Sequence record: NC_021190.1
Origin: Enterobacteria phage phi80
Reading direction: 5' to 3' (one strand)
DNA: 46,150 nucleotides
Program-made: the position numbers
Shown here: positions 42,001-46,150 of the stretch, one piece after another
Layout: each line of letters begins with the position of its first letter
Position numbering within the stretch: the stretch's first letter is position 1

Positions 42001-45000
42001 GAAAAACTGGATAGATTCATCTCTAACGCTGGGAATACGTTCAGTCGTTCCGAAGCCAAAAAAATTCAAGCCCGAGGTTAACGCCTTGGGCTTTTTTTAT
42101 TTCTTTGTGGCCTAAATCGCTTCGAGCCAAAAAAACGCGGAGAACGACATCACCCCTCTCCGCAATAACGACTCAATCTCATACCCGCTTGTCTTTCTTT
42201 TATCCACAAAGAGGTAAAGCCATAACTTAGTGGAAATGGTAACAGCTAAAAACTATTTGAAAAGCTAATTATTTTTTGCATCAACTGGCTATTCTTAAGG
42301 ATTGTTTAATTTTTTGCTTTCCTAGCGAGAAAGAAGCTCCGGAAACTATCAATCAATACAAGGCTGCCGTTCGGCGGCCTTTTTTATTCCTAGCAACAGC
42401 ACTCGCACAAAGCGAGGTGAGAGTATGTATCGCATGGACAAACTAACCACTGGTGCTGCCTATGGCGCTTCAGCCGGGAGCATCCTAAACGGCATGTTGA
42501 ATGCCTACAGCCCCGAGCAGTGGAACGCTATCGGCGTGCTGGTGGGTATCATCATTGCCGTAATGACGTATCTGACAAATCTCTATTTCAAAATCCGCGA
42601 AGACAACCGCCGCAGCAGGAGCCGAGATGAACCCAACGTTGAGGAATAAGCTGGTGGGTGCCATTGTTGGCGGATCAGGGGCAATCACTATTGCTGCAGT
42701 AATGCTGGGCAATGCGGATGGACTCGAAGGTCGGCGTTATTACGCCTATCAGGATGTGGTCGGCGTCTGGACCGTTTGCGATGGGCACACTGGTACCGAC
42801 ATTCGCCGCGGTCACCGATATACCGACAAAGAGTGTGACAACCTGCTTAAGGCAGATCTGCGAAAGGTGGCAAGCGCCATCGACCCGCTGATCAAGGTTC
42901 GCATCCCTGAGCCAACCCGCGCCGCGCTTTACTCCTTCACCTATAACGTTGGCTCTGGTGCTTTTGCCAGCTCGACGCTGCTGAAGAAGCTGAACTCCGG
43001 TGATGTTCCGGGTGCGTGTAAAGAACTGCAGCGCTGGACTTATGCTGGCGGCAAGCAGTGGAAGGGGCTGATCACCCGGCGCGAGATTGAGCGTGAAGTC
43101 TGCGAGTGGGGCCAGAAATGAGCCGATTAACCGCAATCATCTGCGCTGTCGTTATCTGCCTGCTGGTTTCCATGGCCTGGGCCATTAACCACTACCGCGA
43201 CAACGCCATCACCTACAAAGACCAGCGCGACAAAGCCACCAAAAGTCTCCGCCTGGCTAACGACACCATCAAAGACATGCAGACCCGTCAGCGTGATGTC
43301 GCTGCACTGGATGCCAAATACACCGGAGAACTGGCTGATGCGAAAGAAACCATTGAGCGTCTGCATAGCGATGTCATTGCTGGCCGTAAGCGGCTGCAAG
43401 TCGCCGCCACCTGTGCAAAGTCAACGACCGGAGCCAGCAGCATGGGCGATGGAGAAAGCCCAAGACTTACAGCAGATGCTGAACTCAATTATTACCGTCT
43501 CCGAAGTGGAATCGACAGGATAACCGCGCAGGTTAACTACCTGCAGGAATACATCAGGACGCAATGCCTGAAATAATTTTTTTGCAAATCACAAAGTCAA
43601 TTTAATGAGCCTCGCGATGCGGGGCTTTTTTATGTCCGCAGTAAACGCGCATCTCACGCGCATATTAACGAGAGCCTTTCAGTAAGCGAGCCTGAGAAAT
43701 GCCGTTATAGGTGGCGACCTCTCTCGGGCGGCTTTTCTGTGAGACAGGCTCACTTTCTAAAAGGTAAAGACGCTATGAATAATCCGTCAGTTATTCCGGC
43801 CTTCGACTTCCGCGAAATGGTCACGACCCTCGACAACAAGATAATCACCACATCACTCAAGGTGGCGGATTACTTTGGCAAGCGACACAAAGACGTTTTG
43901 CGTGCCATACGTAACCTGAAATGCTCCGATGACTTCACCCAGCGCAATTTTGCGCCCATTGATTTCATTGATAAAAATGGCGATGTTCAGCCTATGTATA
44001 ACATCACCCGCGACGGATGCATGATGCTAGTGATGGGATTCACTGGCAAAACAGCTGCCGCAGTGAAGGAGTGTTACATCAATGCCTTCAACTGGATGGC
44101 CGAGCAGCTAAACCGGCGCATGGCGATGGGTGAAGAATTGCAGCATCGCTACGCCATCAAAGAAACGCGCTCAAAGCTGAAAGGCACGATCGGAAGCCGT
44201 TTGATGAACGAGCGGAAGAAAGAGAAGCGCGTCCTGGAGCTCGAACATGAGCACATCATGCAGGTAACGCAGCCAGAATTGTTGATTGGCTGATCGCGGC
44301 ATTACAGCAGGCATTCACTGAGTGCCTGTGATAATGCAACAGCCCGTACAAAACGGGCTTGGATTTATCTCTTTGTTGCGTTCATGGTCACATGGTAAAC
44401 GAATTGGCTAAATTGGTTATCCCAGCGCCCATTATGATTAGCTGCAACTAATTGCATTAACGCCTGCATTAACTTGCTGAACAGCAAGATTAACTTAAGT
44501 CTGTTTTTTGAACTGTCACTATCTAAGGAAACTTCTTCGGTTAATTGATTCTCGGCGTTAAAAATACCCAGTTTTGATTCTTCCATGCTGGGTTCCGTTG
44601 GATGCTGTTTAAAGTATTCAGTCAGAGTATCCTTCAGGCTCTGGATCCTTGAATCAGCAATGCTTTGTATTGATGGATTGTGTGCAAGGTCATTACGCAT
44701 TGAGTTGATGGTTTTAAGTGATTTCATAAGTTCCGGGGGGATTCCCAGGTTTCCCGCCATGGATATTTTAGTATTACATTCGATTAAAAGTTTGTTTTTA
44801 TCTCTTCCAAAGAGATCTTGGCAGTCACAGCATGCGCATATCCATGCTTCGACCATGCGCTCACAAAGTAGGTGAATGCGCAATGTAGTACCCACATCGT
44901 CATCGCTTTCCACTGCTCTCGCGAATAAAGATGGAAAATCAATCTCATGGTAATAGTCCATGAAAATCCTTGTATTCATAAATCCTCCAGGTAGCTATAT

Positions 45001-46150
45001 GCAAATTGAAACAAAAGAGATGGTGATCTTTCTAAGAGATGATGGAATCTCCCTTCAGTATCCCGATGGTCAATGCGCTGGATATGGGATAGATGGGAAT
45101 ATGCTGATTTTTATGGGACAGAGTTGCGAACTGTTCCCAACTAAAATCATTTTGCACGATCAGCGCACTACGAACTTTACCCACAAATAGTCAGGTAATG
45201 AATCCTGATATAAAGACAGGTTGATAAATCAGTCTTCTACGCGCATCGCACGCGCACACCGTAGAAAGTCTTTCAGTTGTGAGCCTGGGCAAACCGTTAA
45301 CTTTCGGCGGCTTTGCTGTGCGACAGGCTCACGTCTAAAAGGAAATAAATCATGGGTCATAAAATTATCACGTTGTCCGGCGCGGCGACGGATGTTCTGT
45401 ATGCGCTGTTTTTCCGTGGCGCGTTGCTGTCTGGTGATCTGCCTTCTAAATCTGGCACAGCCGAATTGCGCGAGCTTGGTTTTGCTGAAACCAGACACAC
45501 AGCAACTGAATACCAGAAAGAAAATCACTTTACCTTTCTGACATCAGAAGGGCAGAAATTTGCCGTTGAACACCTGGTCAATACGCGTTTTGGTGAGCAG
45601 CAATATTGCGCTTCGATGACGCTTGGCGTTGAGATTGATACCTCTGCTGCACAAAAGGCAATCGACGAGCTGGACCAGCGCATTCGTGACACCGTCTCCT
45701 TCGAACTTATTCGCAATGGAGTGTCATTCATCAAGGACGCCGCTATCGCAAATGGTGCTATCCACGCAGCGGCAATCGAAACACCTCAGCCGGTGACCAA
45801 TATCTACAACATCAGCCTTGGTATCCAGCGTGATGAGCCAGCGCAGAACAAGGTAACCGTCAGTGCCGATAAGTTCAAAGTTAAACCTGGTGTTGATACC
45901 AACATTGAAACGTTGATCGAAAACGCGCTGAAAAACGCTGCTGAATGTGCGGCGCTGGATGTCACAAAGCAAATGGCAGCAGACAAGAAAGCGATGGATG
46001 AACTGGCTTCCTATGTCCGCACGGCCATCATGATGGAATGTTTCCCCGGTGGTGTTATCTGGCAGCAGTGCCGTCGATAGTATGCAATTGATAATTATTA
46101 TCATTTGCGGGTCCTTTCCGGCGATCCGCCTTGTTACGGGGCGGCGACCT

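What the first reader, a model, noticed from the sequence alone, without database searches (positions are those of the whole stretch)
43643..45351. Conserved ~115-130 bp leader duplicated upstream of two right-end genes
The sequences before the Rha-like gene (about 43643-43774) and before the 242-aa gene (about 45238-45351) are clearly related: ACGCGCATC(T/G)CACGCGCA, TTTCAGT, GAGCCTG, CCGTTA, CGGCGGCTTT, then an inverted partner GTG(A/C)GACAGGCTCAC and TCTAAAAGG before the ATG. GTGAGCCTG and CAGGCTCAC form a 9-bp inverted repeat about 40-55 bp apart in both copies. A shared element before two unrelated genes points to a common regulator site or a structured 5' UTR.
Basis: seen in the sequence. 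Interest (0 to 1): 0.6.

Follow-up and report, generated by a model that had tools for sequence, protein, structure and literature searches.

The report
Double-pseudoknotted leader RNA before phage accessory genes
The two related stretches are copies of a widespread, previously uncatalogued folded RNA leader with two covarying pseudoknots. It buries the ribosome-binding site of accessory genes inserted into the late operons of lambda- and P22-like phages, and probably keeps them translationally locked.

Summary
A covariance model finds exactly two sense-strand copies in the window, at 43643-43777 and 45237-45354, each ending at the ATG of an unrelated gene (Rha-like; 242 aa). They are not a recent duplication: they belong to different subfamilies of a leader found across Enterobacterales phages and prophages, including P22, 933W, HK620, epsilon34, ST64B and HK639. 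The A subfamily alone occurs in 955 of 5426 complete E. coli genomes.

The leader is an RNA. It has a small hairpin (P0), a linker, and a ~100-nt hairpin whose base pairs CCUUU with the Shine-Dalgarno AAAGG. Most nested pairs show compensatory changes: 27 of 37 in one alignment and 32 of 37 in the other.

The P0 loop pairs with a 6-nt 3' bulge (PK1), and the linker pairs with an apical loop (PK2). Both covary through many sequence combinations.

No Rfam family matches. One member was recently detected as the P22 small RNA "P22F", function unknown.

The most likely function is a translational lock on cargo genes embedded in the Q-antiterminated late transcript. The releasing trigger is unknown.

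The parts
43607..43634 (+). Intrinsic-terminator-like hairpin plus T-run after Rz, immediately upstream of leader copy A
   Evidence: Terminator scan. 90 of 122 distinct leaders elsewhere also sit directly after a hairpin plus T-run.
43647..43661 (+). Copy A, P0 mini-hairpin: stem GCGC/GCGC and 7-nt loop AUCUCAC (43651-43657). Loop bases 43652-43657 form the 5' strand of pseudoknot PK1.
   Evidence: Fold. The P0 stem is 100% and 98.8% paired, with double changes. PK1 covariation.
43669..43674 (+). Copy A, linker segment CGAGAG: 5' strand of pseudoknot PK2
   Evidence: Complementary to CUCUCG at 43721-43726. Covaries across subfamilies.
43675..43694 (+). Copy A, 5' arm of P1 (anti-SD CCUUUCAG...) and P2 (GAGCCUG)
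   Evidence: Inverted repeat I2, fold, covariation.
43695..43738 (+). Copy A, upper hairpin. P3 is 43695-99 / 43734-38. P4 is 43701-06 / 43727-32. The apical P5 hairpin is 43709-20. The 3'-side internal loop CUCUCG (43721-26) is the PK2 3' strand.
   Evidence: Fold. Covariation of P3/P4. PK2.
43739..43744 (+). Copy A, 6-nt 3' bulge GUGAGA: 3' strand of PK1, pairs with the P0 loop UCUCAC
43745..43764 (+). Copy A, 3' arm of P2 and P1. Contains the Shine-Dalgarno AAAGG (43760-43764).
43775..44293 (+). Cargo gene A: Rha-family protein (172 aa)
   Evidence: Pfam Phage_pRha, E 6.4e-31; PHROG 518.
45241..45255 (+). Copy B, P0 mini-hairpin with loop AUCGCAC (45245-45251). The PK1 5' strand is 45246-45251.
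45264..45269 (+). Copy B, linker GAAAGU: PK2 5' strand
   Evidence: Pairs with ACUUUC at 45300-45305.
45270..45287 (+). Copy B, 5' arm of P1/P2 (CUUUCAGUUGUGAGCCUG)
   Evidence: Inverted repeat I7, fold.
45288..45317 (+). Copy B, upper hairpin. P3 is 45288-93 / 45312-17. P4 is 45294-98 / 45306-10. The apical loop is 45299-45305, and its ACUUUC is the PK2 3' strand.
45318..45323 (+). Copy B, 3' bulge GUGCGA: PK1 3' strand, pairs with the loop UCGCAC
45324..45342 (+). Copy B, 3' arm of P2/P1 with the Shine-Dalgarno AAAGG (45338-45342)
45352..46080 (+). Cargo gene B: 242-aa protein of unknown function (PHROG 17079), with a weak match to the Phage_Tail_Tip domain

Best explanation
Each copy is the 5' leader RNA of a portable 'leader + cargo gene' cassette sitting in the Q-antiterminated late operon of a lambdoid phage.

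Shown by comparison: the leader has a conserved compact fold. It consists of a mini-hairpin (P0), a linker, and a ~100-nt irregular hairpin (P1-P4). The base helix P1 pairs an anti-SD (CCUUU) with the cargo gene's Shine-Dalgarno (AAAGG). Two pseudoknots tie the 5' part to the hairpin: the P0 loop pairs with the 3' bulge between P3 and P2 (PK1), and the linker next to P1 pairs with the apical or internal loop next to P4 (PK2).

Inferred: the two stacks P1+P2 (18-20 bp) and P3+P4+PK2 (17-18 bp) lie side by side, and this locks the helix end that holds the ribosome-binding site. The late transcript ignores terminators and polarity, so the only way to keep an inserted and potentially harmful regulator gene (Rha, KilA-N, Ant, T5orf172, HNH and others) quiet is at the level of translation. 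The leader is that lock. It would be released, or allowed to leak, by an unidentified event: RNA processing inside the leader, or a protein or RNA that opens PK1 or PK2.
For: Structure.
- Both window copies fold to the same architecture, -45 and -40 kcal/mol, z about -2.5.
- Nested helices are 94.4% and 93.8% paired. 27 of 37 and 32 of 37 pairs show changes on both sides, 0 of 500 shuffles reach this, and slid controls give 34-49% paired.
- PK1 is 99.5% and 97.1% paired. All 6 pairs show double changes, 0 of 500 shuffles reach the paired fraction or covariation score, and slid controls give 10-69%. PK1 was not part of the model used to align the sequences. Examples: UCUCAC/GUGAGA, UCGCAC/GUGCGA, UCACAC/GUGUGA, UCGUAC/GUACGA, UAGCAC/GUGCUA, UUCACC/GGUGAA, CUGACAU/AUGUCAG, ACGCUC/GAGCGU.
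- PK2: 92% of 50 distinct linker/loop combinations have at least 5 contiguous pairs, against a shuffle mean of 34% and a maximum of 54% in 2000 shuffles. Examples: CGAGAG/CUCUCG, CCCGAG/CUCGGG, GAAAGU/ACUUUC, CACAGAA/UUCUGUG, CCAAAGA/UCUUUGG, CGAGACA/UGUCUCG.
- Frequent G-U pairs fit only the sense strand. The reverse strand scores 22-28 bits against 79-152 bits for the sense strand.

Translation.
- The SD 4-mer has a median unpaired probability of 0.12 in 118 leaders, even without counting the pseudoknots.
- 118 of 121 distinct leaders end at an ATG, 8-12 nt after the helix.

Cassette nature.
- An identical leader is joined at the ATG to several unrelated genes.
- Cassettes occur after Rz, between R and Rz (933W), and after the major tail gene (HK639, Klebsiella phage 2b).
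- 74% of leaders lie directly after a terminator-like hairpin. No conserved promoter was found.

Biology.
- P22 rha is a late-operon gene that is detrimental to lytic growth in hosts lacking IHF, as summarised in PMC4936722.
- An 89-nt RNA, P22F, accumulates in P22-infected cells and maps inside the P22 rha leader (PMC13397905).
Against: - No expression data were available for this window, so the effect on translation is inferred.
- In the P22-type subfamily the helix ends 2-3 nt upstream of the SD.
- In B-type leaders the terminal SD pairs are weak, with unpaired probability up to 0.66. Burial of the SD is therefore not absolute.
- The hairpin (-30 to -50 kcal/mol) is too stable for a simple equilibrium switch, and no releasing factor was identified.
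- A plain hairpin would be enough for constitutive damping. The two conserved pseudoknots suggest something more specific, such as recognition, processing or a trans function.
- P22F could mean that the RNA itself is the product.
- The side-by-side geometry is a paper model.
Confidence: 0.6

Rival explanations
1. The leader is primarily the gene for a stable processed small RNA. It is cut out of the late transcript and acts in trans on phage or host targets, or acts back on its own cassette like the c4 RNA of P1/P7 or IsrK of Gifsy-1. In that case PK1 and PK2 could be intermolecular pairings between a processed 5' fragment and the hairpin.
For: P22F, an 89-nt RNA covering the P22 hairpin, is abundant in infected cells and vesicles and was validated by RT-PCR (PMC13397905). 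Covariation cannot distinguish pairing in cis from pairing in trans. Each cassette in a multi-cassette phage has its own PK1 code in all 12 such loci, as expected for specificity determinants like those of c4 (c4 as summarised in PMC12197685).
Against: The element always ends 8-12 nt before an ATG and contains that gene's SD. It has no promoter of its own. It has only a weak internal terminator-like feature. P22F lacks P0 and the linker, which carry the two 5' pairing strands. The linker is covalently next to P1, which fits a cis fold.
Confidence: 0.2
2. The fold is an RNA-processing or stability module: an RNase III, RNase E or RNase P site, or a barrier that segments the long late transcript and protects the flanking cistrons. 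Burial of the SD would be incidental.
For: The long imperfect duplex with a 3'-side internal loop resembles phage RNase III sites (own knowledge of the T7 and lambda N-leader sites). P22F has defined ends inside the P1 5' arm and 5 nt before the ATG. The leader usually follows a terminator hairpin.
Against: The element is tied to the start codon of the downstream gene rather than to the 3' end of the upstream gene. It is found only before accessory genes and not between core late genes. P1 keeps its pairing with the SD region even where the sequence is completely different (L079: CACAUAG/CUAUGUG).
Confidence: 0.1
3. A ligand-sensing riboswitch or a self-cleaving ribozyme.
For: The multi-helix, double-pseudoknot architecture is as complex as that of riboswitch aptamers and small ribozymes.
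Against: Almost no unpaired nucleotides are conserved across subfamilies. Loops, connector and apex all vary, so there is no candidate pocket or active site. No Rfam family matches, even at E up to 10. The cargo genes are regulators and nucleases, not a metabolic pathway. In the pistol ribozyme the pseudoknot partner lies on the 5' side of the internal loop; here it lies on the 3' side (own knowledge of the pistol fold).
Confidence: 0.05
4. A DNA-level element: a shared operator or promoter for a common regulator, a recombination site, or simply a recent duplication.
For: The GCGC-N7-GCGC motif is palindromic in DNA. Leaders lie at mosaic joints.
Against: Every helix, including two long-range ones, is kept by compensatory changes with many G-U pairs, which is meaningless for duplex DNA. 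No promoter-like site lies in either leader. The two window copies are only 74% identical and belong to different, separately widespread subfamilies.
Confidence: 0.03

Closest known systems
P22 small RNA 'P22F' (Naaz et al. 2026, PMC13397905)
   Same: It is the same element in phage P22. The 89-nt P22F sequence maps exactly to L122 3551-3639, inside the model-defined rha leader at 3505-3647. The leader is therefore transcribed and yields a stable RNA.
   Different: The paper reports it only as a 'hairpin-heavy' RNA of unknown function found identically in some other phages. It does not describe P0, the two pseudoknots, the SD pairing, the family with its subfamilies, the variable cargo genes or the host range. 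The window copies are different subfamilies (60.8 bits for P22 against 152.5 and 79.3 bits).
c4 antisense RNA - icd/ant (immI) of phages P1 and P7
   Same: An upstream, co-transcribed RNA segment uses two short exposed sequences to pair with two downstream sites. This controls translation of an antirepressor-type gene, and the pairing sequences differ between phages as specificity codes (c4 summary in PMC12197685; details from own knowledge).
   Different: There is no sequence or model similarity: the Rfam C4 family gives no hit. Here the targets are bulges of a hairpin that itself buries the SD, the partner lies next to the hairpin (a cis fold), and the element sits in the late operon before many kinds of gene.
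IsrK - orf45 - anrP leader of Salmonella prophage Gifsy-1 (PMC4825925)
   Same: A structured leader in a lambdoid prophage keeps an antirepressor-like gene translationally inactive. Short and long RNA forms derive from one locus.
   Different: IsrK lies between the Q-like gene and the lysis genes, has its own promoter, and works through an upstream ORF. There is no Rfam IsrK match here. The weak isrJ-like hit at 43561-43628 (E 2.1) is just the Rz terminator.
Translation-inhibiting leader hairpins of phage late or toxic genes (Mu com/mom; lambda N leader with nutL plus an RNase III hairpin; T4 e, soc and I-TevI hairpins; IS10 fold-back inhibition)
   Same: A stable stem occludes the ribosome-binding site of a potentially harmful gene in read-through transcripts. 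Release needs a protein, a cleavage, or a different 5' end (own knowledge of these systems).
   Different: Those are single hairpins specific to one gene. This is a portable, family-level fold with two covarying pseudoknots, shared by unrelated genes in many phages. No internal promoter or activator was found.
Morons (Juhala et al. 2000) and PeSL mobile regulatory cassettes of T4-type phages (PMC2839356)
   Same: Extra genes are inserted between conserved late genes, and a repeated regulatory motif flanks variable genes at mosaic joints.
   Different: Morons and PeSLs are defined by a promoter plus a terminator. This motif is a transcribed RNA fold without a promoter, and its joint with the cargo lies exactly at the start codon.

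Membership tests
Any Rfam 15 family (including C4, IsrK, IsrJ, sar, pistol) | Covariance-model score at or above the family's gathering threshold | tested here: not met
   There are 0 matches at gathering thresholds in the whole window. At E up to 10 on the leaders alone, only miRNA-hairpin or sRNA hits of 11-22 bits appear, far below thresholds of 37-137 bits.
SD-sequestering translational leader (cis-regulatory RNA) | The Shine-Dalgarno sequence of the downstream gene is base-paired in a conserved helix | tested here: met
   CCUUU pairs with AAAGG in both copies. P1 pairs are conserved with double changes. Median unpaired probability of the SD is 0.12 in 118 leaders. Exception: in the P22 type the helix ends just 5' of the SD.
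SD-sequestering translational leader (cis-regulatory RNA) | Disrupting the helix raises translation and compensatory mutation restores repression | not testable with these tools
   Needs reporter fusions or toeprinting.
c4-type cis-encoded antisense control of antirepressor genes (P1/P7 immI) | Two short upstream segments are complementary to two downstream target sites in the same transcript, with covarying specificity | tested here: met
   PK1 and PK2. PK1 codes differ between cassettes of one phage in all 12 multi-cassette loci.
c4-type cis-encoded antisense control of antirepressor genes (P1/P7 immI) | Homology to c4 RNA; a ~77-nt RNA released by RNase P that acts in trans; targets overlap the icd RBS | tested here: not met
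   No C4 model hit. The targets are hairpin bulges 16-40 nt upstream of the SD. Processing could not be tested.
IsrK-type dual small/messenger RNA | Own promoter downstream of a Q-like gene; a terminator read-through isoform; an upstream ORF coupling translation | tested here: not met
   The element lies after the lysis genes, no promoter was found, and there is no conserved upstream ORF: the ATG at 43632 is absent in close variants, which read TTATATCC or TTACGTCC.
Moron (promoter-gene-terminator insertion) | An extra gene inserted between genes that are adjacent in related phages | tested here: met
   In 933W and phi367, ant lies between R and Rz. In HK639 and Klebsiella phage 2b, the cassette follows the major tail gene.
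Moron (promoter-gene-terminator insertion) | Own sigma-70 promoter upstream of the gene | tested here: not met
   There is no promoter-like site in either leader. The -10-like TATTAA of copy A is not conserved in the other subfamilies.
Riboswitch / small self-cleaving ribozyme | Conserved unpaired nucleotides forming a pocket or active site | tested here: not met
   Loops, connector and apex vary freely between subfamilies. Conservation is in paired positions.
Rha gene regulation by IHF (phi80/P22 rha) | rha expression or toxicity depends on the host IHF | not testable with these tools
   Known only from the secondary citation in PMC4936722. The primary paper could not be retrieved. By eye, I saw no match to the IHF consensus WATCAANNNNTTR in the leaders.

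The most novel reading that the evidence does not exclude
The leader is a new class of structured regulatory RNA: a two-stack, double-crossover-like fold closed by two 'kissing' pseudoknots whose sequences act as cassette-specific codes. It serves as a portable translational lock for cargo genes embedded in antiterminated phage late operons. A shape-recognising factor or a programmed cleavage opens it. One candidate is the junction-binding host protein IHF/HU, which would explain the 40-year-old observation that rha harms phage growth only in IHF-deficient hosts.
Probability: 0.25. Interest if true: 0.85.

Novelty: new variant of a known kind. Interest (0 to 1): 0.72.

Why it matters
- **Scale.** This looks like a common, uncatalogued structured RNA of enterobacterial temperate phages. 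The A type alone is in 18% of complete E. coli genomes, and the motif is present in Shiga-toxin phages (933W) and in the classical models P22, HK620 and epsilon34.
- **Gene calls.** It corrects gene starts. P22 rha/orf201 and many automatically annotated Rha genes begin inside the RNA.
- **Design logic.** It suggests how phages can carry harmful regulator or nuclease genes inside an operon whose polymerase ignores terminators: portable translational locks that travel with, and are swapped between, cargo genes.
- **RNA structure.** The two covarying pseudoknots give an unusually well-supported tertiary model that can be tested directly.
- **Open questions it makes testable.** The family gives a concrete molecular handle on the old rha/IHF phenotype and on the unexplained small RNA P22F.

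Tried and rejected
- **Rfam.** Scans of the whole window and of each leader alone gave nothing.
- **Promoter.** The promoter scan and inspection of the -10-like TATTAA in copy A gave no conserved promoter.
- **Leader peptide.** The ATG at 43632 opens a 17-codon ORF ending in the P1 5' arm, but that ATG is missing in near-identical leaders. The TTG ORF over copy B has no plausible SD. Rejected.
- **GUG in the bulge as an alternative start.** It is in frame with rha in copy A, but it runs into a stop in copy B and is out of frame in the 933W type (reading of the sequences). Rejected.
- **MAFFT plus RNAalifold.** This recovered only P0, P1 and part of P2 because the inner helices were misaligned. 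It was replaced by a covariance-model alignment.
- **Decoy or antisense partners elsewhere in the window.** None found.
- **Phage lambda.** It has no copy.
- **Literature.** Full-text searches for the sequence strings found nothing relevant. The primary rha paper (Henthorn and Friedman 1995) and a 2026 preprint on non-coding element mining could not be opened.
- **Thermometer idea.** Rejected, because the nested fold alone is -30 to -50 kcal/mol.
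Full report
**1. What is in the window**

The window is a lambda-like phage genome. It ends in a lambda-type cos sequence, GGGCGGCGACCT. The region holds, in order:
- a lysozyme gene (42627-43121) and an Rz gene (43106-43576);
- a terminator-like hairpin at 43607-43627;
- leader copy A;
- a Rha-family gene, ATG 43775 to 44293 (Pfam Phage_pRha E 6.4e-31);
- a minus-strand 204-aa gene of unknown function, 40% G+C;
- leader copy B;
- a 242-aa gene of unknown function, 45352-46080.

**2.

The inverted repeat is longer than described: 20 nt and 18 nt. 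Its outer end pairs CCTTT with the AAAGG Shine-Dalgarno sequence. Both copies fold into the same long irregular hairpin, preceded by a 4-bp mini-hairpin.

**3. It is a family, not a duplication**

BLAST finds copy-A-like leaders in 153 phage records, copy-B-like leaders in 49, and a third subfamily in 305. That third subfamily was first seen in IMG/VR contigs and is present in 933W.

The same leader, identical up to the ATG, precedes unrelated genes:
- Rha;
- KilA-N with an ORF11CD3 domain;
- P22_AR_N antirepressor;
- ANT/KilAC;
- T5orf172/MUG113;
- HNH_3;
- the 242-aa and a 226-aa family;
- small unknown genes.

The cassettes sit in three positions: after Rz, between R and Rz (933W, phi367, PhiR5_1), or after the major tail gene (HK639, Klebsiella phage 2b). 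Some phages carry two or three in tandem (L098 has three).

A-type leaders occur in 955 of 5426 complete E. coli genomes. A pattern scan of one genome per species, confirmed with the covariance model, finds the element in dozens of Enterobacterales genera, including Yersinia, Serratia, Pantoea, Erwinia, Klebsiella, Citrobacter, Kosakonia and Buttiauxella. Phage lambda has none.

**4. It is an RNA structure**

MAFFT plus RNAalifold aligned the inner part poorly. I therefore built a covariance model from nine diverse leaders with the copy-A fold and aligned all hits to it.
- In 39 distinct phage and IMG/VR sequences, 94.4% of cells pair and 27 of 37 pairs show changes on both sides.
- In 83 distinct genome sequences the figures are 93.8% and 32 of 37.
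- No shuffle in 500 reaches these values, and sliding the partners drops pairing to 34-49%.

These alignments are fitted to the nested model, which favours it. Even so, the number of double changes is large. Abundant G-U pairs fit only the sense strand, and the reverse strand scores 22-28 bits against 79-152 bits.

**5.

Its loop is complementary to the conserved 6-nt 3' bulge of the long hairpin. The two covary: UCUCAC/GUGAGA in copy A and UCGCAC/GUGCGA in copy B. Elsewhere the combinations include UCACAC/GUGUGA, UCGUAC/GUACGA, UAGCAC/GUGCUA, UUCACC/GGUGAA, CCCCAC/GUGGGA, UCGCAU/AUGCGA, ACGCUC/GAGCGU, UUCUCC/GGAGAA and CUGACAU/AUGUCAG.

Counted formally, 99.5% and 97.1% of cells pair, all six pairs show double changes, and 0 of 500 shuffles reach the paired fraction or covariation score. 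The covariance model contained no PK1 pairs, so the alignment was not fitted to them.

*PK2.* The 5-8 nt just 5' of P1 are complementary to the loop segment just 5' of the P4 3' strand. Combinations include CGAGAG/CUCUCG (A), GAAAGU/ACUUUC (B), CCCGAG/CUCGGG, CACAGAA/UUCUGUG (933W), CCAAAGA/UCUUUGG, CGAUA/UAUCG, CGAGACA/UGUCUCG, CCACAGAG/CUCUGUGG and CCGCAGA/UCUGCGG.

For a formal test I fixed the 3' strand by position. 92% of 50 distinct combinations then give at least 5 contiguous pairs, against 34% on average and 54% at most in 2000 shuffles.

**6. A geometric reading (inference only)**

The PK2 5' strand runs directly into the P1 5' strand, and the PK2 3' strand runs directly into the P4 3' strand. 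P3+P4+PK2 (17-18 bp) is therefore about as long as P1+P2 (18-20 bp). This fits two antiparallel helical stacks lying side by side, joined at both ends, with PK1 capping the bend. It would clamp the end of P1 that holds the SD.

**7. What it probably does**

- The SD lies in P1 in nearly all members (median unpaired probability 0.12 without counting the pseudoknots).
- The ATG follows 8-12 nt later.
- 74% of leaders directly follow a terminator-like hairpin, and no conserved promoter exists.
- The leader is therefore made as part of the Q-antiterminated late transcript.

That polymerase ignores terminators and Rho (established knowledge of lambda Q). Translation is thus the level left at which an inserted gene can be kept quiet. 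P22 rha is known to be a late-operon gene that is harmful to lytic growth when host IHF is missing (summary in PMC4936722).

I therefore favour a translational lock on cargo genes. The hairpin is too stable for a passive switch, so release must be active: cleavage, a helicase or chaperone, or a factor that opens PK1 or PK2. The trigger remains unknown.

In all 12 loci with several cassettes, each cassette has its own PK1 sequence. This is consistent with a need to avoid cross-pairing on one transcript. Recombination between identical repeats would also remove same-type pairs, so this point is only suggestive.

**8. Experimental support from the literature**

A 2026 small-RNA sequencing study of P22 infection lists an 89-nt RNA, P22F, 'partially overlapping ORF201, no known function', validated by RT-PCR (PMC13397905). 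Its sequence maps exactly to L122 3551-3639, inside the P22 rha leader found by my model at 3505-3647. It starts inside the P1 5' arm and ends 5 nt before the ATG at 3645.

This shows that the leader is transcribed, stable and processed. It also keeps open the rival reading that the RNA has a role of its own. The paper does not describe the fold, the pseudoknots, the family or the cargo genes.

**9. Comparison with known systems**

No Rfam family matches. Functionally the closest systems are:
- the c4-icd/ant system of P1/P7, which uses two short upstream segments pairing with downstream targets, with phage-specific codes;
- the IsrK-orf45-anrP leader of Gifsy-1 (PMC4825925);
- the RBS-occluding hairpins of Mu mom, the lambda N leader, T4 late genes and IS10.

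In evolutionary terms it resembles morons and the PeSL cassettes of T4-type phages (PMC2839356), but it lacks their promoter. It fails the homology tests for all of these. It shares only the principle.

**10. Verdict**

The finding is real and more interesting than first described. It is a widespread structured leader RNA, absent from Rfam 15, with two well-supported pseudoknots, attached as a portable module to accessory genes of temperate enterobacterial phages. The existence of the fold is near certain. The translational-lock function is likely (about 0.6). The trigger is unknown.

Noticed in passing
L122 (P22 NC_002371) 3576-4181; window 43739-44293: The annotated start of P22 rha/orf201 (GTG at 39575) lies in the apical part of the leader hairpin. 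The likely true start is the ATG 69 nt downstream (L122 3645), which has its own SD and is the start used in PMC13397905. The window's longest Rha ORF (GTG 43739) and many RefSeq 'Rha family' gene calls likewise run into the leader.
   Followed up: partly
window 44365-44979 (- strand): A 204-aa gene on the opposite strand lies between the two cassettes. It is AT-rich (40% G+C against 52% for the window) and belongs to PHROG 5483, function unknown. It has a very weak HEPN-like match in the defence library (CARF_HEPN, E 0.004). It looks like a separately acquired, lysogen-expressed moron or possible defence gene.
   Followed up: partly
window 45352-46080; L116 2115-2795 (HK639_13): The 242-aa cargo protein and the 226-aa HK639 cargo protein both give weak to moderate matches to Pfam Phage_Tail_Tip (E 5.7e-5 and 2.2e-9). 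This suggests a tail-tip- or receptor-binding-related domain in a non-structural accessory protein.
   Followed up: no
cargo proteins of several loci: KilA-N and P22_AR_N cargo proteins share a C-terminal ORF11CD3 domain. The cargo genes look like a guild of shuffled DNA-binding modules (Rha, KilA-N, Bro/Ant, T5orf172, HNH).
   Followed up: no
L098 2847-5452 (- strand): Three leader-gene cassettes lie in tandem after an Rz-like gene, with leaders at 5314-5452, 4363-4507 and 3375-3513. Each has a different PK1 sequence: UCUCAC, CCGCA and UCACAC.
   Followed up: partly
L013 1612-1737: One leader variant has lost the 6-nt PK1 bulge, so P2 and P3 form a continuous helix, yet it keeps the P0 loop sequence. 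This is a natural PK1-less variant that could be informative.
   Followed up: no
window 43561-43628: A weak Rfam isrJ-like hit (18.5 bits, E 2.1, threshold 37) covers the end of Rz and its terminator. Probably chance.
   Followed up: partly
phage records MH178096 (Aeromonas phage AsXd-1), OM284015 (Elizabethkingia phage EKP1): Leaders 76-94% identical to copy B occur in phages assigned to non-enterobacterial hosts. The EKP1 copy (L117) is a full member with intact PK1 and PK2. Either the host range is wider or the host assignments deserve a second look.
   Followed up: no
window 46139-46150: The window ends in GGGCGGCGACCT, the lambda-type cohesive-end sequence. The window is therefore a complete linear lambdoid genome in virion orientation.
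   Followed up: no
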